From assembly GCA_009602735.1 (NCBI GenBank), contig WELA01002258.1, positions 140,746-204,745 of the forward strand: 64,000 nucleotides of DNA, read 5' to 3'. Positions 2,437-60,524 of this stretch are shown here, one piece after another. The stretch is from Mesotaenium endlicherianum. Taxonomy: Eukaryota. The notes beneath the pieces are model-generated. The model was given only the letters and a program-made list of their open reading frames with translations. It did not search any database and was not told where the DNA came from. Each line of letters begins with the position of its first letter. Position 1 is the stretch's first letter. A program made the position numbers and the translations under genes.

Positions 2437-2842
2437 CCAAACGCTCACATATAGCACACTTGTATGACCTTCTCAAAGTACTCCTTGCAAATGAAGGTAA
2501 TCTATGACTTTGCTTACCACTTGCAAAAATATTCAAGTGACTGGAAATCGACCAAGAAGACATCGGATTGCTTTGCATTGATAAGAGTGTGATCTACATG
2601 CATACGCTTGCTATAGTTTCTTATACTAATCACTTTAAATTAAGGGAGCTATGCAAAACGCAACTCATTGATTGATGTACCTATCCATATATATTCACCA
2701 ATCATGGAAATCTACATAAAACTGGTGGGTAAAACCATGTCTAACAAAAAGGAAAAGCTCATAGCTGATGACCTGTACATGTGAAAAGACTACTAGAAGT
2801 TCGGACTGGACGCTACTGGGCAGCTGTACAAATAATCACTCT

Positions 2843-3380: not shown

Positions 3381-3459
3381 ACCCCTCCAACTTCATTTGT
3401 TGTCGCCTCGACAACATTAAACTGCAGAAGTCTTAAATACTGACTGCCTCTTTAGCCTG

Positions 3460-5109
3460 TCACGTAGGGGGCCGTTCTGGGGCTCCAGGATCAGGAGACT
3501 GAGATCTGGACCTAGATCTGGACAGCCCTCTAGGTCTGTCAGTTGGCCTTTTAAAGAACCCCGTTTGCTCTACAGTTGGACCTCGAGGAGAACAAAGGAT
3601 GGTAGCCTGCTCTTCACCCACTTGGATGTTGATCCCCACATAGACAGGCATTCCAGTAGGATGCTGAAATACATTGGCAAGAGGTACATGTCCCTGAGCG
3701 AAGGGGGAGGCCGGCATACCTCTGACCCACCCGCGTGTCCCTCTTCTGGCACCCCTGTCCCCTGGGGATTTTTGTCTGTGTCTGCTGCCAAGTACAGCAG
3801 GTGGGCTGGGGGAGCGAATGCGGGGTCCAGTTGCCTCCATGACCGGGATCACGTTCCATATACCTGATCTAGGTTCCTTAGGAAGTGCCCCTGCCTGCTC
3901 CTGGGTCTCCTGAGTACCAGCTCCTGATGCTTCTCCTCTGCCTTGTTCTTCTTCCTCCTCCTCCTCATCCTCCTCCTTCAAAAGAGTTGCAGTCTCGTCC
4001 ACTAAGTCGTCCTGCTCCTTGGTAGACATGGAGTAGTCTACTGACCTCCCTTTCTTAGGGCGCGCTGGAGGTTGCTTGGCCTTTAGCCTGCTGATATCTA
4101 TTCGGCCTGCATTCTTCGCCCATTTGACGAAGGCATGCTTTCCCTTAGAGAAGCAGTCTCTCCCCCTCCTCCTGTGCTCTTTGGTCTCTGCATTCATATT
4201 GCTCAGGCAGCCATTCAGCCTGGGGTCCCAAGGGGCAATGTGAGGTGGTAGGATGAGGTAGCCGTCTAGGCCATAGTGGAAATCGTCTGGTTGGGCTCGG
4301 TCACACTCCTGCTTTTTGTTTGTGACGGTCATCCACCTCAAGTCTGTTGGCTGCTGGTAGTACTGGGGTCCATGCTCAGCCTTTCTCAGACATGGGAACC
4401 AGTGGGGAGACAACATCTGCTGTCCTGCTTCCTTGGCCAAGTACTCCCAGCTCCTTCTCTCAACTTCGTTGTAAGCTGGCAATAATGTGAGGTAAAATAC
4501 CGTATCCTTAAAGCTATCGGGCCGCATGCTCACCATCTTGATGAGTCTCTGATCTCCCACTATTCCCGGTATTGGGACTGGCTTGTTCTCTGAATCATCA
4601 GCAAGGTACCGAGCCTGCTCTGCTGTATAGCCCACCATCTTGGCATAATCCTCGTAGAGGACCACACCAGTGTGTGTCTCAATGTACCTATCCAGTGCTG
4701 CAGCTCCTTCCCTCTGTAGCAGTGTTGTCTGTTCTCGCTTGTTGATCTCCTGGGCTGCCAGCAATGCTTCCTTCAGGTTATCAAAGTTTTGGCCACCCAC
4801 CACAGTTTACCTGTAAGTGGCCAAGCTCTTCTGCCTGTCCGCTACAGCCTTTTTCCTTCTCTCCTCCTCTGCCGCTGCCGCTTCGTCTTGTTGTTTCTTC
4901 TGTCTCTCCTCCTCAGCCTTCCTGAGGTTTTTCGCTTCCTGATCTTTCTTCCTTTGTGCTTCTTCTGCCGCCTCTTGTTGTTTGCGGACCCTTTCTTGTT
5001 CTCTCTTGGTGAGGGACGTCGCCGCCAGCTCCTTGTAGTATTGCTCCATTGTCCTCCTGGCCTCTTCGGCCTTGCGCTTTCTGTCCTCCTTTTGTGTGGT
5101 GGGAGCCAT
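3460..5109 (-). pseudogene. ORF3 of A1: ~549-aa accessory protein of unknown function with one premature stop
   Basis: ORFs 4807-5133 and 3460-4803 are in one frame, split by TAA at 4807-4809 where the other copies have TAC (YRYTV). ATG at 5109. Charged coiled-coil-like N-terminus, conserved core, acidic tract, SP/RS-rich tail. Confidence 0.85.
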
Positions 5110-5499
5110 TCTGCACATACAACTAGGGCACAAGTTAGTAGGATATCGACCTTTGTCATAGGAGTTGTAGGAAGGGAGTAAGTTCGTATTAGTATGGTAT
5201 GTTCGTTCCTGTTTACCTCACAGGGTGATTGCTAGGAGTTGACGTAGTTGTGGTGCGCTAGACATAGACGTATGAATGTGTTTTCAGGTGTGTTATGTGA
5301 TGTATTGCTGTGCGAGGCCCCTGTTTCCTTCAGCCAAAGGTGCTTTATGTGGGTCAGGCTGTCCCCTCTGTCACTATGCTCACACTTAGGATTCACATAA
5401 CCGTCCCTTTCTCGCTCTCGCACACTAACTGTCATATACTTTCCCCTCCAACTTAAATGGAGACAGGACCTCCTGTCACCTGCCCTTGTCAACTGAAAT

Positions 5500-8400
5500 G
5501 TCTGTTAGGGAGGTGCTTCAGCCGCCCGAAGGTGGAATCGTTTCAACGCCCCTTTGGCATTAGTCAGATGGTCTTTAAATTCCCAAGTGTCCCCAGAGGC
5601 ATCGTAACCCTTCCATCGAATGAGGTACTTCATGACATATTTAGACGATCGACGAACCAAAGACGATCGACCCAGACAGGGCCAAGCTTTTTCTTGACCA
5701 CACCAGGGAGGTACAGGTGCTGAGAATGCAGTTTGACTATATCGCCCTTAGAAAATGTCAGCTCCCAACGGTGTTGATTGGCGTATTTTTGTTGGTTTTC
5801 TTGGGCTTTGTGCAGGGAATGTTGGACTTCTGACAGGGTGTCAGCAAACTCCTGAGTTAACTGGAGGGAAACGGGATTGTCAATCCCTTCAAAGTGAGTT
5901 AAAGACTCCCCTAGCACATCTAAAGGAGACTTAGGGACTCTACCCAGGCTGAGTTCAAAAGGAGTCTTGCCCGTTGATGCGTGCACCGCACTGTTGACCG
6001 CAAACTGAATTTGAGGCAACAAGTCATCCCAATTATCTTGTTTTTGGTTGATATATGCTCTCAGCACCTCTTGCAGAACTCGGTTAGTTCTTTCAGTCTA
6101 CCCATCATTCTGAGGGTGGTTAGCTGTGCTGAGCAGTTTTTTGACTCCCATTAACTCCATGTCATGATTTATTGAGTCGAGGTTGCCGCACGAACCCGAG
6201 CTACAAGCGTGTGAGCGATCAACCTCGAACGGGCACTTGCCTCTTTGCATTTGTGTGATTTAGTTTATTAAGTTGCTATGCTCGCATGCCTAGGGGATAG
6301 ATGCCACGTGACAAGTCAACACTTGTCACGTGCGCCAGACCTACTAGACGCACCAGAGGCACGGGTCGAATACCCGTCCAAAACTGGACGGTGGCACTTG
6401 ACTTGTTTTCATAGCCACTACAGGCCGCAGGGACCCAAGCGACAGCCCGAAGCAAAGGCGACAAGGGTCGAGGGGGGCCACGTGGAGCCACCGGAAGGTG
6501 GCGGGCTTCTGCGCTTGGCCCAGGCGCACCCGGCAGCCAGCCCGAGCACTTAATTGTGCTCGGCGCCAAGCGACGGGAGCCACCAAGGCCACGTGGCGCC
6601 ACCGGAAGGTGGCGGGCACCTTCAAGTGGCCCAGGGGCACTTAAATGCCCGTCACTCGGGCCCAGGCACTCTTAAGTGCCCGACACCCAAGTGGCGAGGC
6701 CACCAAGGGCACCCAGGGCCACCGACCGACAGCTGCAGCCCGTCGATTGGCCCATGCGCATTCGACCAAGATGTGCTCAGCCGACAGGAACCGTCACAGC
6801 CTGCAGGAGTACCACAGCTTAGCGGGAAACCGTCCGATTGCACAAACATAAGTGTGCAAGCTTGTCTTACAAGCTTAGCATGTGCTAAAGTGAGCTTGAC
6901 CTATCACAAGCATTTAGCATATTCTAGCATCTCGTTTTTGATTGGATTGAATAGTAACTAGCCTATTGGAGCGCTAGCACAATAGGTATATATGTGTGTA
7001 TGCAAAGGTAGATCTAAGATAAAGACTACATGCATTGCATCCGCGCCTAACCCGCCAGGTTTCCAGGAGTAAAAGTACTAGAGATGTCCCTAGAAGAGAC
7101 ATCTTTTAGAAGTCCATTATGCCAGGTGTAAGTAACAGAGATTATCAGTAAAGCTTACACTTTTATCTCTTGTGTTTTCAGGACCACTTAGTGACTCTCT
7201 TGTGAAGAGCAAGCCCTCCAGGCTTCCAGTCACTTGAAGAACTTCACAAGTGGTGAGCAAAGTCACAGCTTAAGCCCTTGCCATAGGACTACTCTGAAGA
7301 TCATGATGTGCTTCCAGTGATCTTTTGGGCCATACTTCATTAGTTGTTTTCCTACCAGATTACAGTCTTGAGGTGCTCACTCTGGATAGTACACTTCCCT
7401 TAATTATAACATTTGACGCTTGACTCCCTTTTATAAAGCCCCCTGTATTGTAAACTTCATTGCAGCAAAGCCTGCTTGCTTATTATGCATTGCTTGTGTC
7501 GATAGTACGCACCCGACCTCCAAGCGCACGACATCCATTAAAACTCTCCAGAACTTAGAGGTAAATTTTGAGTCTCTGTCTGAGATGATATTAGAAGGGA
7601 GCCCATGTTGGCATACTACATGGTTGTAGAACTGTCTCGCTGTTTCGAGTGCAGTTACTTTGACAGTTGTGGGGATAAAAATGACCATTTTTGTTAGTTT
7701 ATCCACGACTACCAGTATGGAATCATGCCCATTGGCGGTTCTTGGTAGTGTGACCACCCAGTCCATGGATATAGTTTCCCAGCGTCCAGCTGGGATGGGA
7801 AGTGGTTGCAAGAGACCTCTCGGTGGTGTGTGCCTAGACTTATTTCTTTGACACTGATCACGGGATTTCATATATTTCAAGACCTCCCGGGGCAACCCCT
7901 CCCAATGATAATGTTTTGCCAGTTTGCCAACAGTTTTGGCCTGCCCCAAATGCCCACCCAGTAAACTGTCACGCGCTTGACTCAGTAAGAGAGACCTTAT
8001 TTCCAAATAATTAGGAAGGACCAGCTTCAGCCTGCCTAAAGTGGTTTCAGTCACCCAGACCCCTCCCTTAAGCCGGTACCCGAGTGCAGTAGCACAACAC
8101 ACACCAGTAGTGGGGCTGGGCTCAAATGTTGGGTCCGAAAGGTAGGCTTTTCTAAGTTGTTCAAGGAAGGACTTTTTCACCTTTAGTGAAGTGAGTGTAC
8201 ACAAGACTTTATCTACAGCATGCTGACTAAAGTTCCTTTCTTGCAAGTCAAGTCTTCTAGAGAGTGCATCAGCAGGATTCAACTTCCCTGGTTTGTAGTC
8301 GATCTGGACTTGGAACTGCTCCAGCACCTGGCTCCAGCGGTTCTCCCTCCTCGACAGCTTGGACTTCTTCTGAAAGTGAGTCAGAGCTAGATGATCTGTA

Positions 8401-10480
8401 ATCACCTTGAAAACTTTACCATGTAAGTATGCTCTCCACTCTTTGAGCACATGAATGATAGCTAGTAGCTCTTTATCATGCACTGAGTAATTAATCTCAG
8501 CTGGATTAAATTTCATAGACTCGTACACCATTGGGTGCCACTCCCGCCGTACCTTACCATCCTTTGTGGTTTTGTCAGCAGGCTGCAACAAAATAGCACC
8601 CATGGCAAAGTCAGAGGCATCAGTGACCACCTGCACTGGTTTGCTGGGGTCATACACGGCTTGTACTGGGGCAGAACAAAGGGCATCTTTAAGGGTCTGG
8701 AAGGCAGCCTGCTGCTCTTCCCCCCACACATACTCGATGTCTTTCTTAGTAAGGTCAGTCAGTTTACTGGCCTTTGTGGAATAATTCTCAATAAATCTCC
8801 TATAGTAGTTAGCCAACCCGAGGAAGGATCTAACTTCAGAGACAGACTGTAGTACTGGCCAGTCCCTTATGGTCTGGACTTTCTTAAAATCCACACTGAT
8901 GCCTTCTTTACTGACAACGTGGGCTAAGAATTCAATACTTTCCTTAAAGAAATCACACTTGCTTATTATAGCATATAACTGATTTTTTCTCAAAATCTCC
9001 ATGACTGTCTTTAAGTGTTTAGCGTGTTGAGCTTCATCTCTAGAGAAAATTAAAATATCATCCAGGAAAACTTGCACAAATTTATCCAAATACGGCCTGA
9101 AAATGTCATTCGTAGCACCCATGATGGTCGCAGGAGCATTAGTCAGTCCAAATGGCATCACGTTGAACTCATAGTGTCCATAACGTGTGCGGAAGGCAGG
9201 CATGTGTTCATCCCCCTCAGCAATTCTAATTTGATGATAACCACTCTTGAGATCTATTTTACTTTAACACCCTAGCACCCGATAGGGTATCAAGCAAGTC
9301 CTTGATTCTTGGTAAAGCATACTTGTTCTTTACTGTAATCTTGTTCAGGGCTCTGTAATCCACACACATCCGCATACTGCCATCCTTTTTTTAAACAAAT
9401 AGGATGGGTGCGCCGTAAGGTGATTTACTGGGGGAAATATAACCATTTTCCTCAAGCTCTGCAATCTGTGTTTTCAACTCCTCGCTCTCCACATAAGACA
9501 AGCCGTAAGTGCGTTGCCATGGTGGCTAACTCCCAGGTAATAAATCAATCCTATGATCTACTTCCCTCTTAGGTGGTAGTCTCGGAGGCATATTAAAAAC
9601 TTCCGTGTACTGAGCAACAATCTTTGCAGCAGTAGGGTGCTCCGGAGGGCTTACCTTTTTCTCAACCACTTCTTCAGGTTGAGGAGGTACCTCTCTTAGC
9701 AGCAGACAGAACATTCTGTCTTCCTTCTGGTTCCAGCTTTTGACGAACTCCATTGCATTCAGCAACTTGCATCCTTCTGGAAGCCTCTTCTTTTCCTTCA
9801 TTTGCCATCCACACAGGACAAGAGGAAGAGCACTGGTGGGTGCCAAGTCAGTCTGCCCATCACTGGCTCCTCTCACTTTAACTGTACCTCTGCTCCAACA
9901 CACTTCAGCTTGATGTCTATTAAGCCAGGACCTGCCTAGCACGAGATCATAAAAGCCAGTGTTGAGTACCTCAAATGTAAGCGTTTCAGTTAGAACTGCA
10001 ATGCCAGAACCTAACTGGACCTCAATAGGCTTGGTTATAACTCCTCCCGGAATACTTGAGGCATCTCCAAGGAATATTTTTCTATTTGCTTGGGTGACAG
10101 TAGGCAGCCTTAGCCGCTTAACTAAGTCCTTATGGATAAAAGTATGTGACGCCCCTCCGTCAACAAATGCCCTCACCTTCCTACCTGCAATCATGCAATG
10201 CAGTAGGATAGGGGGGACTGTCTTTTCCTGACTTTCGCATTGTTCTCCTGACGTAGCGAAGAAATGTTGGACATCAGGTGGAACAAGAGCATCCAGAGTG
10301 TGCACTCTCTGGATGTCTATATTGCTGATGGTCTCCTTTATCTGGTTGTCAGGCATGCATAGTGAATCCAGTTCAGCAGGACCCATAATACCTGCTACGA
10401 GGGCAGCTAGTGACGACTCACTATCTCTAGCATCCTCACAGTCAATAGACTGGATTACTGACTGTTGCTGTCTTCTAAAG
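5500..10480 (-). pseudogene. pol: pol of A1 (PR, RT, RNase H, integrase, partial chromodomain), frameshifted and interrupted
   Basis: PR motif [45 protein letters not shown] and ISDRD; interrupted at 6160-7533; deletion near 5660. Confidence 0.92.
6160..7533. mobile_element. Putative solo LTR, family D (1374 bp), inserted in the A1 integrase
   Basis: TGTCATG...CACGACA termini; 4-bp TSD TCCA at 6156-6159 and 7534-7537; removing it restores the integrase sequence; no long ORF. Confidence 0.8.
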
Positions 10481-12880
10481 GCTGGTCTTTTCTATCGACC
10501 TTCGGAAGATGTTTGACTGGACACTGTTCTCTGTAGTGGCCCAATTGCTGACAATGGTAGCAAATGGATTTTGATGAGGCTGGTCTCGGCTTAGTCCTAC
10601 CGCCACCTCTTCCATGGCCACCTCGAGAGTAACCACCTCTCCCCCTAGATTGCATAGCATTATACTCATACTCGTACTCATCACCCTGATCATCCTCAGC
10701 CTGGTCTCCTCCAATTGCATTGTAGGAACCGTGGGGCTTTTTTACAATCTTAGACACCAAAGCTTTACTCTGGCGCTTGTGATTGAACTGTAACGATTTG
10801 AGCTTTTTAGGCGTATCTGGGACTTTTTCCCAATCACCTAAAATACGTTATACTATTTATCATAAGTTAATTGATAAAGAATTGCATCACATTGAATTAT
10901 TCGCCACACACGTGTGCGATGAATTCCCGGTCGATTGGCGAAACGACCGAGATCCTATTGCAAAAAGCGTCGTAACGTAATTCGACTAGTTCGCAAAAGT
11001 ACGACATAATTATTCATAAAGCTACTTTGAATAATTATGAGATGATAATTTAATTAATCATTGTTTGATTAAGTTATGTTGACTGTCATTATTACGAATA
11101 ATGGACAATCACAGGTTTCGGATTACGACTAGTCGTAATACGAAGAAACTAATACGAACAAACAGTCGTAATCATTAATACGAACAAACAGTCGTAAAGT
11201 CAAGCGAAACGAAATATGCGAAGTCGCTCTGCATCCGAGCGACTATCGTTTGAAACGTTCACACCTAACCGATTGGCCAAAGTAGCTTTTTAAACTACCG
11301 GTTCATGACCAAAGCATGTGTACGCGACTCCGTGATCAATCGCGACTTTTTCGGAAAGTCGCGAGAACGCGAAAACGCCCGTTTGGCGCGAAACGATTTT
11401 TCGGAACCCGTCGAAAAGTCTCCAAACGGCCAACTGCGCGTTTCGAGCATTCGGCCGAATGGTACACGTCCCTTCGACCGTTTTCGTTGAACATGAACCA
11501 GTGCCCTAGGTGGTGACTCGAAGCACTCCAGTGCCTCATGTTGTGCAGGTATTTATACCTGCAGAGTCATTGTGAGTGCAACTCTCACAAGCACACATTC
11601 TACGTTAGTTTTCACTTTCGCTCTTTCGAGTATTCGTCAATTTCCACAAGTATACAGGATTTCCTTCCACTTGAATTAAATATTCCTTGAATACCGAGGA
11701 AAGATCCTCTCGAAAAGCAGAAACGTCACATGAACTGCTGCTGATCCCAAGCATCAGCATCCTGGATCAAGTCAGCGAGTTTCTCATACTTCTTCTCAGC
11801 AAAATGACCAGAGACTTTGGATTTCAAGCCATACCTGAAGTATGCTATCCTATACCGTTCTGGCAAGTCTAACAGCTTCATCATGTTGTCTTGGAACTTT
11901 TGAGCAAACTCAGCATCTGAAGTGGTCTGCTTCAGTGTCAGGGAGATCATTGCATAGATAGCTTTCTCCTGCTAGTTGATGACATCAAACTTCTCATGCA
12001 ACTTCTCCACAAACTCTACCCACGTAGGGTCACCGAGTTGCTGAGTTTTACGCTCTCTTTTCTAGTATAACCACCAGTCTGCGGCACTGCCTTTCAGTAG
12101 CGCACCGGTGTGCCTGACCTTCTCGTAATCTTGCAGTTCTGGGTAGTTCTCCAGCCACTGCTCAACATCCGCGAGAAACTTGATCAGGTAATATTTTCTG
12201 TTTCCCTCAGAATCATAGTCCTGGGGAGGTTTTGGCTTGGGCTTACCTGGCCCTCTGCCACCACCACCAGTGGTTTGAGACCCCAGTTGGTCTCTGTCTC
12301 GCAGTAGAGACATTCTGATTCGTTTGTCCTCCTGTTGGGTCTGATACATGGTCGCCATTTGCGACTGCATTTGAACGAACAATGCTCCCAAGTCTACACT
12401 CTGGGGTAGTAGTCTAGCAAATGCAGCAGCAGCATTGGCATCTACTCGATGAGTAGTGTCCTCAACAGTCCCTCTCGCTCCTGCAACAGCAATTCCTGCC
12501 GCATTCAGCCGGTCACGTATTTGACCTAGGGGTACATTGAGTTGTACAGCAGGAGGTGGGTTCAGAACATTGGCCCTGGATGCCATAAGTTCCTCAACCG
12601 TACGCTCGTCAGCGGGCTGTCCTTCCCTCCTTTTTGTATCCTCAGCAGCCTTTGCTAATTGTTCAGCTTCTAATCTGGCTCTCTCCTCCTCAGCTTGCTG
12701 TGCTGCGACTGCGGCAATAGCAGCTGCCTCATCTGCAGCCTCTCTAGCTGCAGTATCTGCCACTGCTTCAGAATAGGTACGGGTTCCCGCTACATGGCTT
12801 TCCGCGTGGTTTTCCACATTCTCGTTATCCTGGTTCTCCATGTCTCGGGAGTTGCTAGTTTGAGACTTTGTCCTTACCAT
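10455..12880 (-). pseudogene. gag: gag of A1, interrupted by solo LTR E
   Basis: MVRTKSQ start; LKGSAADWW; CCHC knuckle CYHCQQLGHYREQC; in-frame stops near 12062 and 11972. Confidence 0.9.
10789..11730. mobile_element. Solo LTR, family E (942 bp, CpG-rich), inserted in A1 gag
   Basis: TGTAACG...CGTCACA termini; 5-bp TSD TGAAC at 10784-10788 and 11731-11735; gag resumes on both sides. Confidence 0.88.
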
Positions 12881-12901
12881 ACAAAGAAGACTGTGATAAC
12901 T

Positions 12902-12913
12902 GCTCCGATACCA
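12902..12913 (-). promoter_or_regulatory. Primer-binding site (tRNA-iMet type) of A1
   Basis: TGGTATCGGAGC on the minus strand, 1 nt after the 5' LTR. Confidence 0.9.
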
Positions 12914-12914
12914 C

Positions 12915-13326
12915 TGAAATGAATCGACTTACTAAATAGGNTAAATAGGCGATTAACAATTAATATAGATCTTTATATCAGCAAGTAATCTTTATGGTAA
13001 TTTTCGTTAACTGGTTAAACGGCAAAGGACAACACACTAGCAGTGAATAATAGGGATGTCATCTGACCATTCATCGAGCATACCATACTTAGATGCATAT
13101 CGAGGCAGTTTGCTGCTACCGAGTACGGAAGTCAGCTGGCTGTCAAAGAATGTGTCAACTAGCTGACTTAAGTTGACTTCAGCCTGCTGCTTCCGGCTGA
13201 GTCATTAAACTGATATTATGTATGATTTCTAGCAGATTGATTATTTACTAAAGTTCAGCAGGCTGAACTTAATTAACTATTATATTTAAATGAATATTAA
13301 ATCTACTAATATACAGATTCATTACA
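12915..13326 (-). repeat. 5' LTR of A1 with an internal deletion of ~300 bp
   Basis: TGAAATGAATC...GATTCATTACA. The junction gtgaataata|gggatgtc near 13052 skips the LTR centre seen in other copies. Confidence 0.88.
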
Positions 13327-29893: not shown

Positions 29894-30014
29894 TGATTCA
29901 TTACAATCCCTCCAACTTAAATTGTTGTCAACTCGACAATTCTTCTATTATTGTTTACAACAAAGTAACACACATACATCACAACCAACTGAATCTAAAA
30001 CAAAGACAACACCA

Positions 30015-31519
30015 AACTAAGTACCAGGGGCTCGGTCTTTTGGGGAGCGAGTCCTGGTACCGGATCTCCTTCTCCAGTCTGATGGTCTCTTGAAACCTGG
30101 GGGCTCAGATCAGGGTGAACCAAGGGGTGAACACAGCAACTGGACAGCCTACTCTTGCACTGTCTGCAAGTTGATGGAGACCGCTCTCTCTTGTGCAGCT
30201 CTCAAACTGACAGGGACATACACTGGCATACCGAAGGGGTGCTGCATGACATGGGCTAAGACTACATGCCCTCTATGAGAGGGGGATGCTCTGTCTGACT
30301 GAGTCTCACCTCCTGGGGTGAGACTCCTCCTGCTGAAACTCCCCAGCCACAAGAGATCTGGGTCTCTTGGTGGGCTGGTATCCCCAAGCTGCTGCAAGGC
30401 TGCCTGTGCAACAGCACTTCCAGTCTGCTGTAGAGTGGGGGATGTAGCGCGGGTCTATGCCTCAGCAGGAGTAGACTCCTCTTCAGCGCCTTCCTTCTCT
30501 TTGTCCTCCTGTTCCTCTGAGACTTCTAGAGTCTCTCTGGTCATCTCCTCCAGCCGTTCCCGAGAAAAAAAGTATCCCACTGACCTCCCCCTTTTGGGTG
30601 CAGGTGGGAGGATGCTGGGTCCAGACAGCATACAGGTCTTTCTCCCCTTGCTTACTTGCCCATTTGGCATAAGCATGCTTCCCCTTAGAGAAAGAACCTC
30701 TAGCCCTGATTCTATCCTCCTGTGTCTCCTGACTCATGCAGTCCCTGACTCCATCCAACCTTGGGTCCCATGCTGCAATATGAGGTGGCAGCACTATCTT
30801 CCCCTGCAAATCTGCCAGGAAATTATCTTCTGCAGCTCTGTCATTTTGCTGGTCCTTCATTGTGATGGTCATCCAGCGCCAGTCAGTGGGCTATAGAAAG
30901 AACGCAAGATTCGTCCTCTTTAAAGTGCAGGGATACCAATGACCTCAAAAACCCAACTGACTGGTCTTCCTTGCCAAGAACACCCAGCTTTTTCTCTCCA
31001 CCTCGTTATACATGGCCTTGAACCGGTTGTGGGAAGTGGTATCCTTGAAGCTGTCTGTATGCATAAGGATCAACCTGATGACCTTGTCTGTGCCCCAGAT
31101 CCCAGGTATTGGCACCATTTCAGATTCACCTATCTGGGCCAATGCTTTGGCCTCCCGGAGTGTATATCCCACCATCCTGGCATAGTCATGGTGTAGTAGA
31201 AGCCCTTGCCCATCACCGTGTAGCGGTAGCTTTTGATTCTCCTCTGTTCCTCCTCAGCCTGTTGCTTCCACCTCTCCTCAGCCAACCTTTGTTCCTCCGT
31301 CTTCTTGGCTTCCTCTGCAGCCTCTTTGTCCTGCTCCTCCTGTCTTAGCCTGGCCTGTTCTTCCTCCTCCTTCCTCTTTTGAGCCTCCCGGTGCAGTCGG
31401 AGTCGCTCTGATTCTCGAGAAGAGATGGAGGATGATTCGATGTCGTTATGGAACTCCTTGTACTCCGCCTGCGCCTCGTCCGCCCTTCTTTTCCTCTTGA
31501 GTTTAGACAATTTTGTCAT
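30015..31519 (-). pseudogene. ORF3 of A2 (fragmented)
   Basis: Pieces 31130-31528, 30945-31175, 30483-30872, 30455-30676 and 30149-30397 carry VGYT, DSFKD, YNEVERKS, LPPHIAAWDPRLDG, FSKGKHA and GHV..QHP..PVYV. Confidence 0.85.
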
Positions 31520-31949
31520 CCGGCTCATTCATACCACAATGAAGTTAGTGTAGTCACAATATCATGCACAGGATTGAGTACTTTGACAGGGAAGAACGTA
31601 GTAGAGGGAGTTAGAGCATGCAATACATGGTGTAAGTAAATTGAAAGTGCGAGCGTGCTTGAGAGGAAAGTGAGTGTGAGCGCAGTTGAGTGTGGAGGAT
31701 AAATATGCGAAGGAAATCGGCAATCGGCTAGTTTCTGAGATGTTTATCCCACTCCCTCCAACTTTATGCATAGGTGGGTTGCCTGTTTCAACTGTCACTG
31801 GGCTGCTTGTCACAACTGTCACTCCCTGTCAACTACTGTCACTTTCTGTCACTAACTGTCACTTTAGGCCACGTTTGGCCACATTTCCCCTCCAACTTCA
31901 ATGGAGACAGGACCTCCTGTCACCTTCCCTTATCAATCGAAATGACAGT

Positions 31950-50143: not shown

Positions 50144-51533
50144 TGTAATGAATCGGTATATTGGTAAATATAATATTTATTTAAATATAATAGTTTGTTT
50201 AGTACATTGGTAGACTTAACATTCGATTAAATATGATAGTTAGTTAAGTTCAGCCTACTGAACTTTAGTTGATATTCAGTCTGCTAAACTTTATCAGTTT
50301 AATGACTCAGTCGGGAGCAGCAGGCTGAAGTCAACTTAGGTCAGCAAGCTGATACATTCTTTGACAGCCAGCTGACTTCCATACTCGGAAGCAGCGAATT
50401 GCCTAGATATGCATTCAAGTGTGGTATGCTAGATGAATGGCCAGATGACATCCTTGGGATGGATGGCGATTCGGAATGATGGAAAATGGCGGTGGATTTG
50501 GTTAACCGAGTTCCTACCAACGTGGTTAACTCTCGGGTAGGCGGTGCCATTGCACTTGCCGTTGAACAGTAAACTCATTCCACGTACATATGCTAGGTAT
50601 TGCTCTCGAGTCCGGCATTCAAAAATGAGGCCAACTCTGTTGTACAGCTAACTGAGTCGACTTACCAAATAAGCGATTAATAAATAATAAAGATCTTTAT
50701 ATCAGCAAGTAATCTTTATGGTATTTTCTGTTAATTGATTAAACAGCAAGGGACAACACACGAGCAGTGGGCAATACTCGGAAGTCAAATGCAAGTAAAT
50801 TAGCATCAATAATGCAATCAGGAAACTCATACTTAAGCAAGGCTAGAAGACAGTGCATATCAATGGCTTCTGGCCTTGGATCCAGATATCTCTCAGTAAG
50901 CAGTACAAGAGAGTTGGCCTTGTTTCCGAATGCCAAACTTGAGAGCAATCCTTGCATATGTATAATGAGTTTACTGTTCAACGGCAAGTGCGATGGCACC
51001 GCCTACCCGGGAGTTAACCACGTTGGTAGGACCTCAATTAACCAAATCTACCGCCATCTCCCATCATCCCGAATCGCCATCCATCCAAAGGATGTCATCT
51101 GGCCATTCGTCTAGCTTACCACACTTATGTGCGTAACTAGGCAGTTTGCTGCTACCGCGTACGGAAGTCAGCTGGCTGTCAAAGAAAGTGTCAGCAAGCT
51201 GACTTAAGTTGACTTCAGCCTGCTGCTCCCGGCTGAGTCATTAAACTGATTATTTAATAAAGTCCAAAAGACTCAATATTAACAAAAGTTCAGCAGTCTG
51301 AACTTATTTAACTATTATATTTGAATGAATATTATATCTACCAATATGCTGATTCATTACAATCTCTCCAACTTAACAGGTTGTCGTCTCGACAACACTA
51401 ACACTGGGTACACGGTTTTCCCTAACTGAAAGTACTGATCTCTCTCCCACCGCCTCTTGCTCCAACGTTGATACTCAACGGTGGGGATCACTAGTAACAG
51501 CGTGCAGTGTCTTTTGCCCTCAGCCTACTGCCA

Positions 51534-53176
51534 TTAGGAGGGAGATGTCCCTGGGGCCCTAGGGTCAGGGGAGTGTGACCTCCTCCTGTCTTGGGGTCTC
51601 CTGAAGCCTGGGGGATCCGTGTAGAGATCCCGCGGAGAACGCAATAACTGTGCTGTTTCCTGCTGTACAGTCTGAAACTGAATGGAGGCAGCCTTCTCTT
51701 GGGCAGCCCTCAAACTGACAGGTACATATACCGGAATCCCAGATTGATGTTGCATGACATGAGCTATAGGCACATGCCCTCTCTGCGAGGGAGATGCTGG
51801 CAGGCCTCTGGCTATTTCTCTAGCAGCCCTCCTGTCTGCCCTGTCTGACTGGGTCTCCGAGCCTGGAGATGGGCACTGTCCTCTGGCAATTTCCAGCCAA
51901 GTGGAATCTTCCTCTCCAGCGAGCTGATGCTGGGCCAACCCAGTCTTCTCCCTTAGAGGGGATGTGGCAAGCGTCAGGATCACAGCGGGGCTAGTGTCCT
52001 CCTCCTCGCCTTCGATCCCTCCTCCTCTCCGTCCCCTAGTTCCTCTGAGACTGCTAGGGTCTCTTCTGTCAGCTGCTCCAGCTCTTCCCGAGAAAAAGAA
52101 TATCCCACTGACCTTCCCCTTTTGGGTGCTAGTGGGGGCTGTTGAGTCCGGACCCCATACAGGTCCTTTTCTCCCTGCTTGCTTGCCCAGTTGGCATAAG
52201 CGTGCTTTCCTTTAGAGAATGACTCTCAGGCCCTGCTCCTGTTCTCCTGCATTTCCTGGCTCATGCAGTCTCTTACTCCATCCAGTCTTGGGTTCCAAGC
52301 TGCAATGTGAGGAGGCAACACTATGTTCCCCTGTAGGTCTGTTAGGAAGTGTTCCTCCCTTGCCTTGTCATTTTGCTGGTCCCTCATGTTGATGGTCATC
52401 CATCGCCAATTGGTGGGCTTCTGGAAGAAGGCAGGGTCTCTCCTTTTGAGAGTACAAGGGTACCACTGCCCTGCAAATTCCAGCTGACCAATTTCCCTCG
52501 CCAAAAATCCCTTGCTCCTTCTCTCCACCTCATTATACATGGCCTTGAACCTGTTGTGGGATGTGGAGTCCTTAAAGCTGTCCGCGTCCATGGGGATCAT
52601 CCTAATGACCCTATCTTTCCCCCAGATACCTGAAATTGTTACAGCTCCTGCTTTGTTCACCTGGGCCATTGCCTTGGCCTCTCTGACCGTATATCCTACC
52701 AACCTGGCATAATCGTGATAGAGGAGGAGTCCTGTGCTGACCTCTATATACTTGTCAAAGTTTTCAGATGTTTCCCCTTCCCTCTGCAGGAATTCCTTTT
52801 GCGACTCACTGCGACTTCTCTGGGCATATTTGAAGGCCTCTTCCAGCAGATCATAGCCCTCGCCCAACACTGTGTAGCGGTAGCTGCTGATTCTCCTCTG
52901 TTCTTCTTCTTCAGCCTGCTGCTTCTGTCTCTCCTCGGCTTGCCTCTCCTCTTCCGCCTTTTTGACCTCCTTTGCAACTTTTTTGTCCAATTCTTCCTGC
53001 CTCATCCTGGCCTGTTCCTCCTCTTCCTTCTTCTTTTGTGCCTCCCGTTGTTGTTGAAGTCGTTGTGATTCCAAAGCGGAGATGGAGGATGATTCGATGT
53101 CGCCACAGAATTGCAAGTATTTTGCATGTGCCTCTTCCGCTCTTCTCTTCCTCTTAAGTTCCGACTTCTTGGTCAT
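51534..53176 (-). pseudogene. ORF3 of A4 (one stop, one frameshift)
   Basis: ATG at 53176; open to TGA at 52226; continues in frame (ESFSKGKHAY..PKRGRSV); frameshift near 52040; C-terminal part 51534-51983. Confidence 0.87.
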
Positions 53177-53549
53177 CCTGCTCAATCATAAACACAATGC
53201 ATTCAGTAAAGTCATGATACTTTGCCGCTACTGAGTGCCCGTGGTGAAGAAGAACGTGATAGGGAGAGTCCCTAGTGCGTAGTACCTTGTGTGAGTGAGT
53301 ATAAGAGAGAATTGAGTTAGAAAGAAAAAGTGAGTATGAGCGCAGGTTGAATGTGCAGAATGGTTATAAAATTTGCCTGGCTGATCTCGAAACGGAACAC
53401 ACTCCCTCCAACTTAATTTTAAAGGTGGGCTGCCTGTCACAATTGTCACTTCCGGTCACTAGCTGTCACATTCCCCTCCAACTTATATGAAGACAAGACA
53501 TCCTGTCACCTGTCCGTGTCCACTGAAATGACAGTTAGGGAGGGGTGCC

Positions 53550-56500
53550 AGCTGCCCGAAGGTGGAACCATTTCAACGCCCCTTTGGCATTGGTCAACTG
53601 GTCTTTAAATTTCCAAGTGTCCCCGGAGGCATCGTAACCCTTCCATCTGACCAGGTACTACATGACATATTTAGATGATCGACGGACAGAGCAAGCGTCT
53701 AAAATCTCCTTGACCTCATATTCCTCAAGGTCACCATCCCGAACAGCGGGGACCGGTCTCGATTGGACAGGTGACCAGCCTGTGAACAGTGTGTCACCTT
53801 TAATGTACGGTTCAAAGAAGGAGACATTAAAGACTAGGTGACCCTTGTATTCTGCTGACATGTTCAGTTTGTAAGCATTCTGACCGACACGGCGCACCAC
53901 CAAATCTGGAGCGACCCAGACAGGACCAAGCTTTTTCTTGACCACACCAGGTAGGTACAGGTGCTGAGAGTGCAGTTTGACCAAATCGCCCTTAGAAAAT
54001 GTCAGCTCTCGACGGTGCTGATTAGCGTATTTTTGTTGGTTTGCTTGGGCTTTGTGCAGGTTCTGTTGGACTTCTGACAGGGTGTCAACAAACTCCTGGG
54101 TTAACTGGAGGGAGACCGGATTGTCAATCCCTTCAGGGTGAGTTAAAGACTCCCCTAGTACATCTAAAGGAGACTTAGGGACTCTACCCAGGCTCAGTTC
54201 AGAAGGAGTCTTGCCCGTTGACGCGTGCACCGCACTGTTGACCGCAAACTGGATTTGAGGCAACAAGTCATCCCTATTGTCTTGGTTTTTGTTAATATAT
54301 GCTCTCAGCACCTCTTGCAGAACTCGGTCAGTTCTTTCAGTCTCCCCATCAATCTGAGGGTGGTTTGCTGTGCTGAGCAGCTGTTTGACTCCTATTAACC
54401 CCATTGAAGCTCTCTAGAACTTAGAGGTAAATTTTCAGTCTCTGTTCGAGATGATATTAGAGGGTAGCCCATGTTGGCATACTACATGGTTGTAGAACCG
54501 TCTCGCTGTTACGAGTGCACTTACTTTGACAGTTGTCGGGATGAAAATGACCATTTTTTGTTAGTTTATCCACGACTACCAGTATCGAATCATGCCCATT
54601 GGCAGTTCGTGACAGTGTTACCACCCAGTCCATGGATATTGTTTCCCAGCGTGCAGCTGACATGGGCAGCGGTTGTAAGAGATCCCCCGGTGGTGTGTGT
54701 CTAGACTTGTTTCTTTGACACTGATCACAGGACTTAACATATTTCAAGACCTCCCGAGGTAACCCCTCCCAATGATAATGTTTTGCCAGTTTGCCAACAG
54801 TTTTGGCCTGCCCCAAATGCCCACCCCGTAAACTGTCATGTGCTTGACTCAGTAAAAGGGACCTTATTTCCAAGTTATTAGAAATGACTAGCTTTAGCCT
54901 GCCTGAAGTGGTTTCAGTCACCCAGACCCCTCTTTTAAGCCTATACCCAAGTGCAGTAGCAGGACACACACCATCAATGGGGCTGGGCCCAAATGTTGGG
55001 TCAGAAAGGTAGGCTTTCCTAAGTTGTTCAAGCAAGGCCTTTTTCACCTTTAATGCAGTGAGTGCACAAAGGACTTTATCTACAGCATGCTGACCAAAGT
55101 TCCTTTCTTGCAAGTCGAGTCTTCTAGAGAGTGCATCAGCAGAATTCAACTTTCCTGGTTTGTAGTCAATCTGGACTTGAAACTGCACCAGTGAAATGAA
55201 TCGACTTACCAAATAGGCGATTAATAATTAATAAAGATCTTTATATTAGCAAGTAATCTTTATGGTATTTCTCGTTAACTGGTTTAACGGCAAAGGACAA
55301 CACAATAGCAGTGAATAATACTCGTCAGTCAAATGCGAGTAAACTAGCATCAATAATGCAAATCGGTAAACTTATACATAAGCAAGGTTAGAAGACAGTG
55401 CGTATCAATGGCTTCTCGCCTTGGATTCAGAGTTCTCTCAGTAAGCTGTACAAGAGAGTTGGCTTCGTTTCCGAATGCCGAACTCGAGAGCAATGCCTAG
55501 CGTATGTACATGGAATGAGTTTACTGTTCAACGGTCAGTGCGATGGCACCGCCTACCCGGGAGTTAACCACGTTGGTAGGACCTCGGTTAACCAAATCCA
55601 CCGCCATCTCCCATCATCCCGAATCGCCATCCATCATAGGGATGTCATCTGGCCATTCATCTAGCATATCACACTTAGATGCATATCGAGGCAGTTCGCT
55701 GCTACCGAGTACGGAAGTCAGCTGGCTCTCAAAGAATGTGTCAGCAAGCTGACTTAAGGTGACCTCAGCCTGCTACTTCCGGCCTGAGTCAGTGAATTGA
55801 TATTAAGTATAAAGTCCAGCAGACTGATTGTTAACTAGAGTTCAGCAGGTTGAACTTATTTAACTATATTATTTAAATGAATATTATGTCAACCAGTGTA
55901 CTGATTCATTACATCCAGCATCTGGCTCCAACGGTTCTCCCTCCTTGACAGTTTGGACTTCTTCTGAAAGTGAGTCAAATCTGTAATCACCTTAAAGGCT
56001 TTACCATGTAAGTATGCTCTCCAATGCTTGAGCACATGAATGATAGCTAGCAGCTCTTTATCATGCACAGAGTAATTAGTCTCAGCTGGATTAGATTTCA
56101 TAGACTCATACAATACAAGATGCCACTCCTGCTTTACTTTACCATCTTTGTGGTTTTGTCAGCAGGTTGCAACAACATAGCACTCATGGCAAAGTCAGAA
56201 GCATCAGTAACCACCTGCACAGGTTTGCTGGGGTCATACACGGCTTGCACTGGGGCAGAACAAAGAGCATCTTTAAGGGTCTGGAAGGCAGCCTGCTGCT
56301 CTTCCCCCCACACATACCCTATGTCTTTCTTAATAAGGTCAGTCAGTTTATCGGCTTTTGTAGAATAATTCTCAGTAAATCTCCTATAGTAGTTAGTTAG
56401 CCAACCCAAGGATGGATCTAACTTCGGAGACAGATTGTGGTACAAGCCAGTCCTTTATGGTCCGGACTTTCTTAGGATCCATACTGATGCCTTCTTTGCT

Positions 56501-58057
56501 GACAACATGGCCTAGAAATTCAATACTTTCCTTGAAGAAATCACACTTGCTCATTGTAGCATACAACTGGTTTCTCCTCAGAGTGTCCATGACTGTCTTT
56601 AAGTGTCCAGCATGCTGAACTTCATCTTTAGAGAAAATTAAAATATCATCGAGGAAGACTTGCAAAACCTTATCCAGGTAAGGTCTGAAAATGTCATTCA
56701 TAGCACCCATGAAGGTTGCAGGAGCATGAGTCAGTCCAAATGGCATCACGTTGAACTCATAGTGTCTATAACGTGTGCGGAAGGCAGTCTTGTGTTCATC
56801 CTCCTCAGCAATCCTGATTTGATGATAACTACTCTTGAGATCTATCTTACTGAACACTTTAGCACCAGACAGGGTATCAAGCAAGTCCTCGATTCTGGGT
56901 AAAGCATACTTGTTCTTTATTGTAAATTTGTTAAGAGCTCCGTAATCAACGCACATCTGCATACTCTCATCCTTTTTCTTAACAAAGAGGATGGGTGCGC
57001 CATTAGGTGATTTACGAGGGAAAATGTACCCATTCTCCTCAAGCTCTGCAATCTGTGTTTTCAACTCTTCGCTCTCCACATAAGACAAGCCATAAGTGCG
57101 TTGCCAGGGTGGCTGACTCCCAGGTAATAAGTCAATCCTGTGATCCACTTCCCTCTTAGGAGGTAGTCCTGAAGGCATGTTAAAAACATCAGTGTACTGA
57201 GCAACAATTTTTGCAGCAGTAGGGTGCTCCGGAAAACTTACCATTTTCTCAACCACTTCTTCATGTTGAGGAGGTACCTCTCTTAGCAACAAACAGAACA
57301 TTCTGTTTTCCTTCTGGTTCCAGCTTTCGATGAACTCTATTGCATTCGGCAATTTGCATCCTGCTGGAAGCCTCTTCTTTTCCTTCATTTGCCATCCATA
57401 CAGGACAAGGGGAAGAGCACTGGTGGGTGCCAAGTTAGTCTGCCCATCACTGGCTCCTCTCACTTCAACTGTACCTCTGCTCCAACACACTTCAGCTTAA
57501 TGTCTATTAAGCCAGGACCTGCCTAGCACGAGATCATAAAAACCAGTGTTGAGTACCTCAAATATAAGCGTTTCAGTTAGAACTGCAATGAACTGGACCT
57601 CAATAGGCTTGCTTATAATTCCTCTCGGGATACTTGAGGCATCTCCAAGGAATATTTTTCTATTCCCTTGGGTGACAGTAGGCAGCCTTAGCCGCTTAAT
57701 TAAGGCCTTATGGATGAAAGTATGTGACGCCCCTCCGCCAACAAATGCCCTCACCTTCCTACCTGCAATCATGCAATGCAGTTGGATAGGGGGGACTGTC
57801 TTTTCCTGACTTTCGCATTGTTCTCCTGACTTAGCGAAGAAATGTTGGACATCAGGTGGAACAAGATCATCCAGAGTGTGCACTCTACGGAGATCTATAT
57901 TGCTGATGGTCTCCTTTATCTGGTTGTCAGACATGCATAGTGAATGCAGTTCAACAGGACCCATAATACCTGCTATGAGGGCAGCTAGTGACGACTCACA
58001 ATCTCTAGCATCCTCACAGTCAGTAGACTGGATTACTGACTGTTGCTGTCTTTTAAA
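53550..58057 (-). pseudogene. pol: pol of A4
   Basis: PR, RT (FLDDILIFS), RH, IN and chromodomain (EEYEVKEIL..*YLVRWKGY) in broken ORFs. Confidence 0.92.
55192..55913 (-). mobile_element. Solo LTR, family A, inside A4 RNase H
   Basis: TGAAATGAATC...GATTCATTACA termini; TSD ACCAG/TCCAG (one mismatch). Confidence 0.92.
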
Positions 58058-59491
58058 GGCTGGTCTTTTCTCTCGACCTTTGGGAGGTGCTTCACTAGGC
58101 ACTGCTCTCTGAAGTGACCCGTCTGCTGGCAATGGAAGCAAACAGATTTTGCTGAGGTTAGTCTCGGCTTACTCCTACCACCACCTCTTCCATAGCCACC
58201 TTGCGAGGAACCACCTCTCCCTCTAGACTGCATAGCATTATATTCTTACCCGTATTCATCACCCTGATCATCCTCAACCTGGTCTTCCTCAATTGCATTG
58301 TAGGAACCGTGGGGCTTTTTGACAACCTTAGACACCAAAGCATTACTCTGGCGCTTGTGATTGATTTGCTGCTGATCCCAGGCATCAGCATCTTGGATCA
58401 AGTCAGCGAATTTCTCATACTTCTTTTCAGCAAAAATAACCAGAGTCTTCGGATTTTAAGCCATACCTGAAGTATGCTATCCTATACCGCTCTGGCAAGT
58501 CTGCTTGCTTCATCATGTTCTTCTGAAGCTTTTGAGCAAAGTCAGCAACTGAAGTGGTCTGCTTCAGTGTCAAGGAGATCATGGCATAGATAGCTTTCTC
58601 CTGCTGATTGATCACATTAAACTTCTCATGCAGTTTCTCGACAAAATTTACCCAAGTAGGGTCACCGAGTTGTTGAGCCTTACGCTTCCCTTTCCAGTAC
58701 AACCACCAGTCTACTGCACTGCCTTTCAGTAGAGCACCAGTGTGCTTGACATTCTCGTGATCTTGCAGTTCTGGGTAATTCTCCAGCCATTGCTCAACAT
58801 CAGCAAAAAACTTGATCAGATAACACTTTTTGTTCCCCTCAGGATCATAATCCTGGGGAGGTTTTGGTTTGGGCTTACTAGGCCCTCTGCCACCACCACC
58901 AGTGGTTCGAGAACCCAGTTGGTCTCTATCTTGTAGCAGAGGCATTATGATTCTTCTGTCCTCCTCTTGGGACTGATACATGCTCGCCATTTGCGATTGC
59001 ATTTGCACGAACAATGCTCCCAAATCCACACTCTGAGGTGGGAGTCTAGCATATGCAGCAGTAGCAGTGGCATCCCCTCGTCGAGTAGTGTCCTCAACAG
59101 TCCCTCTCGCCGCATTCAGACGGTCACGAATTTGACCTAGGGGCACATTGAGTTGTACAACAGGAGGTGGGTTCAGAATATTGGCCCTTGATGCCGTATG
59201 TTCTTCGACAGTGCACTCGTCCGCTGGCTGTCCTTCCCTCCTTTCTGTATCTTTAGCAACCTTTGCTAATTGTTCAACTTCTAATGTGGCTCTCTCCTCC
59301 TCAGCCTGTTCTGCTGCGACTACGACAATAGCAGCTGCCTCATCTGCAGCCTCTCTAGCTGCAGTATCTGCCACTGCTTCAGAATAGGTACGGGTTCTCG
59401 CTACATGGCTTTCAGCCTGGTTTTTAACATTCTTGGTATCCTGGTTCTCCATGTTTTGGGAGTCGCTAGTTTGAGACCTCGTCCTTACCAC
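58033..59491 (-). pseudogene. gag: gag of A4
   Basis: 354-aa ORF with a GTG start, frameshift near 58430, then CFHCQQTGHFREQC. Confidence 0.9.
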
Positions 59492-60524
59492 ACAAAGAAG
59501 ACTGTGATAACTACTCCAATACCACTGAAATGAATCGACTTACCAAATAAGCAATTAACAAATAATTAAGATCTTTATATCAGCAAGTAATCTTTATGGT
59601 ATTTTCTGTTAATTGGTTAAACAGCAAGGGACAACACACTAGCAGTGGACAATACTCGGAAGTCAAATGCAAGTAAACTAGCATCAATAATGCAATCAGG
59701 AAACTCATACTTAAGCAAGGCTAGAAGACAGTGCATATCAATGGCTTCTCGCCTTGGATCCAGATATCTCTCAGTAAGCAGTACAAGAGAGTTGGCCTTG
59801 TTTCCGAATGCCAAACTCGAGAGCAATCCTTGCATATGTACATGGAATGAGTTTACTATTCGACGGCAAGTGCGATGGCATCACCTCCCCGGGAGTTAAC
59901 CACGTTGGTAGGACTTTGGGTAACCAAATCCACCGCCATCTCCTATCATCCCGAATCGCCATCCATCCAAAGGATGTCATCTGGCCATTCATCTAGCACA
60001 CCACACTTAGATGCGTATCTAGGCAATTCGTTGCTACCGCGTACGGAAGTCAGCTGGCTGTCAAAGAATGTGTCAGCAAGCTGACCTAAGTTGACTTCAG
60101 CCTGCTGCTCTCGGCTGAGTCATTAAACTGATTATTTCATAAAGTCCAAAAGATTCAATATTAACTACAGTTCAGCAGGTTGAACTTATTTAAGTATTAT
60201 ATTTAAATGAATATTATCTCTACCAATATATTGATTCATTACACTGAGAGATATCTGAATCCAAGGCGAGAAGCCATTGATATGCAACGTCTTCTAGCCT
60301 TGCCTATGTATGAGTTTAGTGATTGCATAATTGATGCTAGTTACTTGCGTTTGACTTGCAAGTATTGTCCACTGCTTGTGTGTTGTCTCTTGCTGTTTAA
60401 TCAATCAACAGAAAATTCATAAAGATTACTTGCTGATGTAAAGATCTTCATTAATTGTTAATTGCCTATTTGGTAAGTTGATTCATTTCAGTGGTATCGG
60501 AGCTTTTATCACAATCTTCTTTGC

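What the first reader, a model, noticed from the sequence alone, without database searches (positions are those of the whole stretch)
51534..53176. ORF3 diverges far more than gag/pol/LTR between sibling elements: swappable cassette or arms race
Seen: A1 and A4 gag and pol align almost residue for residue (by eye about 80-90%), yet their ORF3 cores match at only roughly half of positions and the DNA hardly aligns. A2 and A4 ORF3 are closer but still distinct. Conservation is restricted to motifs, which points to selection on the protein rather than decay. Inference: ORF3 alleles are exchanged by template switching between subfamilies, or they evolve under diversifying selection from host defence.
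Basis: partly seen in the sequence, partly recalled or inferred. Interest (0 to 1): 0.72.

Follow-up and report, generated by a model that had tools for sequence, protein, structure and literature searches.

The report
Swappable orphan gene in plant-type retrotransposon
Sibling copies of one retrotransposon share nearly the same replication genes but carry very different versions of an extra gene of unknown family, most likely because old versions of that gene were swapped onto a common backbone by recombination rather than driven apart by an arms race.

Summary
Observation confirmed. 51534-53176 is a sense ORF3 between pol and the 3' LTR of a Ty3/gypsy chromovirus (copy A4, 50657-60243, minus strand); sister copies A1 and A2 also carry it. 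A1 vs A4: gag/pol 82-91% amino-acid identity, ORF3 core 44%. Synonymous sites are saturated in ORF3 (pS 0.78 vs 0.17 in integrase), omega is 0.13, the closest pair flips (A1+A4 in integrase, A2+A4 in ORF3) and proportional branch lengths are rejected (LRT 99, 2 df). So ORF3 has an older, separate history under purifying selection: cassette exchange is supported, positive selection is not seen (three copies only). In all three pairs identity falls just behind an extra PPT copy after pol; A1/A4 identity resumes about 30 nt before the true PPT. A4 has a target-site duplication and mutually closest LTRs; A1- and A4-type ORF3 both give very deep contig coverage. ORF3 (about 550 aa, basic motif, charged helical stretch, no membrane segment) has no relative among 1.84 billion proteins. 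Function is inferred only: likely a nuclear accessory regulator. Known kind of process, new gene family.

The parts
50657..60243 (-). Chromovirus copy A4 (5' LTR, PBS, gag, pol with chromodomain, ORF3 cassette, 3' LTR); decayed by stops and frameshifts
   Evidence: Self-blast; Pfam Ty3_capsid, protease, RVT_1, Integrase_H2C2, SH3_Tf2-1; LTRs mutually closest at 93.5% and 5-bp duplication CTGAG at 50652-50656 and 60244-60248
51534..53176 (-). ORF3 of A4: basic KRKRR motif, E/K/R/Q-rich helical stretch, conserved core of about 277 aa, acidic stretch, C-terminal motif and R/S/P tail; one in-frame stop (52226-52228) and one frame change near 52000
53177..53471 (-). Non-coding spacer of the cassette: TGACA repeats, second PPT copy (53403-53414), TATA-like and splice-acceptor-like motifs before the ATG (motif reading from own knowledge, untested)
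53473..53484 (-). Internal PPT copy just after the pol stop; 5' edge of the divergent cassette (change point 53471)
51362..51406 (-). 3' edge of the cassette (change point 51406), short hairpin and the LTR-proximal PPT
50657..51361 (-). A4 3' LTR (terminal 9 nt missing)
59526..60243 (-). A4 5' LTR, followed by a Met-tRNA-type PBS at 59514-59524
   Evidence: tRNA type from own knowledge of the plant TGGTATCAGAGC motif
55192..55913 (-). Solo LTR of the same family inserted in A4 pol
3460..5109 (-). ORF3 of copy A1 (549 codons in one frame, one in-frame stop at 4807-4809); the most divergent type
5443..5454 (-). Internal PPT of A1 (change point 5441)
2838..13326 (-). Copy A1 (3' LTR cut short at 2838, two unrelated inserts)
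30020..31519 (-). ORF3 of partial copy A2 (internal deletion near 31203, stops, frame change); third type
31753..31898 (-). Two internal PPT copies of A2 with an array of TGACA repeats between them (change point 31886)

Best explanation
This is a chromovirus family in which one gag-pol-LTR backbone carries at least three deeply diverged versions of an orphan ORF3 under purifying selection, likely brought together by recombination between co-packaged elements, and ORF3 is predicted to be a nuclear accessory regulator of the element rather than an envelope. Shown: ORF3 has a much older and differently shaped history than the adjoining integrase, with sharp edges at the PPT copy after pol and just before the 3' PPT. 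Inferred: during reverse transcription, template switches can only land in the conserved flanks (pol end/internal PPT and 3' PPT/LTR), so spacer plus ORF3 travels as one block while the backbone is homogenised across types. Inferred, weaker: spacer and ORF3 travel together because the spacer holds the signals that express ORF3 (internal promoter or splice acceptor) and perhaps the site the protein acts on.
For: pS A1-A4 0.78 [0.68-0.87] in ORF3 vs 0.17 [0.13-0.22] in integrase; A2-A4 0.62 [0.52-0.72] vs 0.25 [0.20-0.31], while A2-A4 pN is 0.12 vs 0.09. omega 0.13 vs 0.36. Site patterns A1=A2/A1=A4/A2=A4 are 53/100/46 in integrase and 55/49/193 in ORF3, chi-square 92; unlinked branch lengths beat proportional ones by 2dlnL 99 on 2 df. 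Transversions at four-fold sites 0.39 vs 0.055. Change points at the same spot in 3 of 3 pairs. All 8 matches of the PPT motif in the window lie at these cassettes, 5 of them internal; 0.015 expected in shuffles. A4 inserted as one unit. Summed contig depth in run X1: A1-type ORF3 0.62 and A4-type 0.34 of the adjoining pol depth. No hydrophobic segment (highest 19-residue mean 0.73); basic motif in 3 of 3 copies.
Against: Only three ORF3 copies, all decayed, and no host genome to mine: an unrooted three-taxon comparison gives branch lengths, not a topology, so donor and order of events are unknown. Synonymous-only codon patterns in ORF3 are nearly even (16/9/19), so the flip of the closest pair rests mostly on replacement sites. 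The integrase omega is inflated by decay after insertion. Edges at conserved PPTs are expected under any model in which flanks are constrained. Contig depth is not a copy number, and X1 was found with the A4 cassette. RNA reads over ORF3 were few (bin means up to 7.5, mostly 0 in the poly-A run) and showed no listed splice joint, so expression and function are not shown.
Confidence: 0.78

Rival explanations
1. Arms race: ORF3 shares the history of pol but was driven apart by positive selection from host defence.
For: pN A1-A4 is 0.35 in ORF3 vs 0.06 in integrase; charged N-terminus and tail vary in length.
Against: Synonymous sites diverged far more than replacement sites; omega 0.13; A2-A4 pN hardly exceeds that of integrase while pS more than doubles. 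Frequency-dependent upkeep of old types is not excluded, but that is not dN above dS.
Confidence: 0.05
2. Local mutation hotspot: the region behind pol mutates faster (methylation, error-prone copying), with no exchange.
For: Spacer and 3' UTR are also highly variable; long variable 3' regions are common in plant elements (own knowledge).
Against: A rate change would scale all branches alike, which is rejected; A2 has the long branch in integrase (0.29 vs 0.13 and 0.15), A1 in ORF3 (3.3 vs 0.68 and 0.45); excess includes transversions; CpG depletion is similar in A4 ORF3 and RT (0.34 vs 0.30).
Confidence: 0.05
3. One-off chimeras made after insertion (gene conversion, ectopic recombination, or assembly error) rather than replicating recombinants.
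For: The window is a nest of broken and nested copies; A1 and A2 lack a testable target-site duplication.
Against: A4 has a 5-bp duplication, mutually closest LTRs and sits inside one interrupted LTR; contigs of run X1 cover both ORF3 types at summed depths of 1e5 to 5e5 where listed single contigs have 50-165; together the two types add up to about the pol depth, leaving little room for a separate pol partner above 85% likeness.
Confidence: 0.05
4. One ORF3 type came in by horizontal transfer of a related element from another species, followed by a single recombination, as for Ty1 gag and grass CR elements.
For: Saturated synonymous distance fits long separation; precedent in PMC7055915 and PMC4079200 (abstracts seen).
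Against: Three types at two depths need at least two events; GC at four-fold sites in ORF3 (0.46-0.51) overlaps that of pol and gag (0.34-0.49); no donor was found. This is a variant of the best explanation in the source of the alleles, not in the mechanism.
Confidence: 0.07

Closest known systems
Plant chromoviruses (Ty3/gypsy; Chlamyvir, Galadriel, Tcn1 and kin; PMC6317226, passages seen)
   Same: gag-PR-RT-RH-IN-chromodomain order, Met-type PBS, aromatic-cage residues in the chromodomain, 5-bp target duplication, TG...CA LTRs
   Different: Carries a conserved sense ORF3 of about 550 codons; best RT matches are only up to 66% identical and the RT falls outside the seed-plant clade in an unresolved group, so no named clade is assigned
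Sense extra ORFs of Sireviruses, Athila and Calypso (env-like; PMC2829016 passages, PMC7264820 first third of the text, PMC6317226 passages)
   Same: Sense ORF between pol and 3' LTR, highly variable between elements, extra PPT copies in the linker, repeated motifs upstream of the ORF
   Different: Different lineage; no membrane segment; no sequence match; extra PPTs lie upstream of the ORF, whereas 89% of Sirevirus ones lie after it; here divergence is shown to be old and under purifying selection
Retroviral env swapping (PMC10536682, abstract) and Ty1/Ty1' gag exchange (PMC7055915, abstract); recombining retrotransposon clans (PMC6894440, passages)
   Same: One gene with a separate history on a shared backbone through recombination
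   Different: The exchanged gene is an orphan without envelope features, and the exchanged block is bounded by PPT copies
VANC anti-silencing proteins of VANDAL transposons (PMC5735166, abstract)
   Same: Element-encoded accessory gene that differs between sibling families, next to non-coding short repeats that vary in number
   Different: VANDAL is a DNA transposon; no Pfam match links ORF3 to it; no binding or methylation data here. A lead only
Bdelloid LTR retrotransposon ORF3s (PMC5408684, abstract)
   Same: Modular third ORFs shared or exchanged among retroelements
   Different: Those ORF3s are recognisable enzymes or fusion proteins; these are homologous alleles of one orphan gene

Membership tests
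Chromovirus (Ty3/gypsy) | Domain order gag, PR, RT, RH, IN | tested here: met
   Pfam hits in order along A4 and A1
Chromovirus (Ty3/gypsy) | Chromodomain at the integrase C-terminus | tested here: met
   YEV...Y(L/I)(V/I)RWKGY...TWE motif at the pol end of A1, A2, A4, next to SH3_Tf2-1; read from the sequence, the A-family chromodomain itself was not scored by Pfam
Chromovirus (Ty3/gypsy) | LTRs, PBS, PPT, target-site duplication | tested here: met
Tcn1 clade | Self-priming instead of a tRNA PBS (PMC6317226) | tested here: not met
   TGGTATCGGAGC follows the 5' LTR in A1 and A5, a two-letter variant in A4
Seed-plant chromovirus clades (Tekay, Reina, CRM) | RT placement and loss of the aromatic cage | tested here: not met
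   A4 RT lies outside the supported clade of seed-plant hits in a tree of 27 rows (25 of 120 hits chosen by hand); cage residues Y, W, Y are present
Chlamyvir or Galadriel | RT placement with named reference elements | not testable with these tools
   No named reference set was on hand; the relevant part of the tree is unresolved
Env / env-like ORF | Sense ORF between pol and 3' LTR | tested here: met
Env / env-like ORF | Transmembrane segment or signal peptide | tested here: not met
   Highest 19-residue hydropathy 0.63-0.73; 0-1 N-glycosylation motifs
Env / env-like ORF | Spliced subgenomic mRNA | tested here: inconclusive
   Acceptor-like CAG directly before the ATG in A1 and A4, changed in A2; no RNA joint listed, coverage very low
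VANC-type anti-silencing system | Sequence or domain homology | tested here: not met
   No Pfam family at its cut-off for any of 7 ORF3 pieces
VANC-type anti-silencing system | Binds own non-coding repeats and lowers methylation | not testable with these tools
   Only the TGACA repeat cluster is seen (18 in 508 nt, 1.5 expected, motif and region chosen after looking)
Positively selected viral antagonist | dN/dS above 1 | tested here: not met
   Gene-wide omega 0.13-0.14; site-level tests not possible with 3 copies

The most novel reading that the evidence does not exclude
The PPT-bounded block is a self-contained, exchangeable specificity module: the internal PPT primes plus-strand synthesis and so promotes exchange of exactly this block, and each old ORF3 type encodes a nuclear trans-acting regulator (anti-silencing or copy-control) matched to cis repeats in its own spacer, with several types kept side by side at high copy number by balancing selection on one shared backbone.
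Probability: 0.15. Interest if true: 0.8.

Novelty: new variant of a known kind. Interest (0 to 1): 0.5.

Why it matters
Surveys of plant LTR retrotransposons leave open whether the very variable extra ORFs evolve fast, were acquired many times, or have any function (PMC6317226, passage seen). This family gives a clean case for a fourth answer: one homologous gene under strong purifying selection whose variety comes from old alleles moved onto a common backbone. Because gag, pol and LTR are nearly the same between types, the family is a natural comparison for what an extra ORF does, using copy ages, insertion sites, methylation and small RNAs by type. It also means that classifying or dating such elements by RT alone misses their history.

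Tried and rejected
Homologue searches for ORF3, all blank: word-indexed protein search with the 448-aa A1 piece and with the 3-row core alignment, both limited to near lengths; full HMMER scan of 1,835,955,588 representatives, 0 hits at E 0.001; Pfam (only sub-threshold hits), PHROGs, PDB sequences (best E 1.3); ESM Atlas twice (best 0.83, not usable); DNA scans of viral, metagenome and prokaryote contigs. These collections hold few eukaryotic repeats and not this host (best RT match 66%), so the blank does not show that relatives are absent from related hosts. Structure prediction failed (mean pLDDT 36), so no fold search was run. A metagenome scan with integrase gave 65 distant loci; none matched ORF3 (best E 0.66), and the one downstream ORF compared by profile was unrelated (probability 2%). 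No whole genome is held. No RNA holder was listed for the cassette. An overlapping reading frame as the cause of low synonymous divergence in the protease region was rejected (all five other frames hold 4-25 shared stops). A foreign base composition for ORF3 was not found (the A1 GC3 value was out of frame and is superseded). Three look-ups of earlier scan notes returned nothing. Paper searches listed no report of this family or of ORF3 allele exchange in a chromovirus; the library lacks most subscription journals, and the supplements of PMC6317226, which list extra ORFs by element, were not read.

Full report
Setting. The window is a nest of LTR retrotransposons from a eukaryote for which no genome is held. 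Self-comparison shows five related pieces of one family (A1 2838-13326, A2 29880-33926, A3 47478-50144, A4 50657-60243, all minus strand, and A5 60243-63138 plus strand), many lone LTRs, and an intact-looking element of a second family B at 39220-45900. Pfam places capsid, protease, RT, RNase H and integrase domains in gypsy order. The pol of family A ends in a chromodomain motif with the three aromatic residues, and the 5' LTR is followed by a Met-type PBS (tRNA type from my own knowledge). By passages of PMC6317226, the aromatic cage is limited to non-seed plants among plant chromoviruses, and Tcn1 self-primes. The RT has no match above 66% and falls outside the supported seed-plant clade in a tree of 27 rows (25 of 120 hits picked by hand). 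The host is therefore likely a non-seed plant or alga; this is inference.

The observation. The finding's coordinates are a sense ORF behind pol in A4, with one stop and one frame change. A1 holds it as 549 codons in one frame with one stop; A2 holds it with a deletion, stops and a frame change. A1 and A4 share 82-91% of residues in gag and pol and 89-90% of LTR bases, but 44% of residues and 55% of bases in the ORF3 core; A2 and A4 share 75% there.

Codons were paired through tblastn alignments, leaving out stops and gaps. For A1/A4, 62 of 110 codons for the same amino acid differ in ORF3, at the level expected for saturation (0.59), against 48 of 371 in integrase (p 4e-19). For A2/A4 it is 67 of 161 against 77 of 405 (p 6e-8). 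Bootstrap intervals of pS do not overlap between the two regions for any of the three pairs, and A2/A4 pN is nearly the same in ORF3 (0.12) as in integrase (0.09). A codon model gives omega 0.13 for the ORF3 core and 0.36 for integrase, the latter raised by decay after insertion (the two LTRs of A4 differ by 6.5%). The closest pair is A1+A4 in integrase and A2+A4 in ORF3 (site patterns 53/100/46 vs 55/49/193), and proportional branch lengths are rejected (2dlnL 99, 2 df). Against over-reading: synonymous-only patterns in ORF3 are nearly even (16/9/19), as saturation would give, and three sequences have no rooted topology. Positive selection is not seen at gene level and could not be tested by site.

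Edges. Identity drops from 0.80-0.87 to 0.48-0.55 at the same place in 3 of 3 pairs, directly behind a copy of the PPT about 45 nt after the pol stop (A1 5441, A4 53471, A2 31886); for A1/A4 it returns at 3424/51406, just before a hairpin and the true PPT. All 8 matches of the PPT motif in the window lie at these cassettes: 3 at the LTR and 5 internal (0.015 expected in shuffles). The spacer holds TGACA repeats that vary in number (18 in 508 nt, 1.5 expected; chosen after looking), and an acceptor-like CAG precedes the ATG in A1 and A4. Extra PPTs and repeats beside extra ORFs are known from Sireviruses, Athila4 and Calypso (PMC2829016, passages), so the layout has precedent. Whether the internal PPT causes the exchange or is only the last conserved landing site cannot be told here.

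Replicating types, not accidents. A4 has a 5-bp duplication, its two LTRs are each other's best match (93.5% vs at most 90.1% to others) and it interrupts one older LTR. In contigs of run X1, which include thousands of records at 99% likeness or more, summed depth over the ORF3 bins is 0.62 of the adjoining pol for the A1 type and 0.34 for the A4 type at 85% likeness. The tool warns that this is no copy number and X1 was found with the A4 cassette, so I take it only to show that both types are highly repeated and together roughly match the pol pool.

The protein. About 550 residues: a basic motif near the N-terminus in 3 of 3 copies, a stretch of about 100 residues that is 57-60% E/K/R/Q, a 277-residue core conserved throughout, an acidic run, a short conserved motif and an R/S/P tail. 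There is no membrane segment, so it fails the env test. No relative was found in any search, including 1.84 billion representatives, and folding failed. Purifying selection over a saturating distance shows that it mattered to the element. I commit to a nuclear accessory regulator as the likeliest role (about even odds), by analogy with the nuclear extra-ORF proteins and retroviral accessory factors discussed in PMC7264820 (first third read) and with VANC (PMC5735166, abstract); this is inference from composition and layout only.

Expression. Three RNA runs with the same species label (6-24% of each read) gave low cover of ORF3 (bin means up to 7.5, mostly 0 in the poly-A run), more over the pol end and LTR, almost no reads at 99% likeness and no listed splice joint. 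This neither shows nor excludes expression in other tissues.

Comparison with what is known. Recombination between sibling LTR elements is well documented (PMC6894440, passages; PMC4079200 and PMC7055915, abstracts), as is env swapping (PMC10536682, abstract) and modular ORF3s (PMC5408684, abstract). Very variable extra ORFs of unknown function are common in some plant lineages (PMC6317226, passages). Seven paper searches listed no account of this family; supplements listing extra ORFs were not read and may hold related cases.

Verdict. Real, correctly observed, and best explained by exchange of old ORF3 cassettes on a shared backbone (0.78; 0.85 with the horizontal-import variant). The process is known; the gene family, its deep alleles and the PPT-bounded edges are new to these searches. 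New variant of a known kind, interest 0.5.

Noticed in passing
window 57350-58100 (A4) and the same region of A1, A3, A5: The protease region is almost free of synonymous change among four copies (4 of 167 same-amino-acid codons differ for A1/A4 vs 47 of 218 in RT, p 5e-9). No overlapping open frame explains it. A recent sweep of this segment by recombination or an RNA-level constraint are both open.
   Followed up: partly
window 39220-45900: A young intact-looking chromovirus of a second family (LTRs 99.8% identical, 429-aa gag, 1230-aa pol with chromodomain, Met-type PBS) with only about 770 nt between pol and the 3' LTR and no ORF3; further pieces at 15437-15938 and 63139-64000, a decayed relative at about 37100-39080.
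   Followed up: partly
window 50201-50656 and 60244-60490: A4 sits inside the LTR of A5, in the opposite orientation, and itself holds a solo LTR in pol (55192-55913): repeated insertion of the family into its own copies.
   Followed up: partly
window 53400-54450 and 5391-6160: In two apparently stranded RNA runs the first mates over the pol end lie on the minus strand, which by the usual convention means antisense RNA ending or starting near the spacer; fixed differences suggest one or a few other copies as the source.
   Followed up: no
L001:5768-7342, L009:5589-7031, L031:1626-2618, L014:6134-8080, L015:8389-9273: Distant metagenomic chromoviruses also carry long sense ORFs behind pol; those of L001, L009 and L031 look related to each other by eye, have no Pfam family at cut-off and do not match this ORF3.
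   Followed up: partly
window 23950-25370: GC-rich stretch of imperfect 15-nt repeats coding Q/P/Y-rich frames on the plus strand; not examined.
   Followed up: no
window 6160-7535 and 10790-11731: Two inserts in A1 with no long match elsewhere in the window; the first holds a 54-nt internal repeat.
   Followed up: no
window 16257-16673: Assembly gap of 417 N flanked by simple repeats.
   Followed up: no
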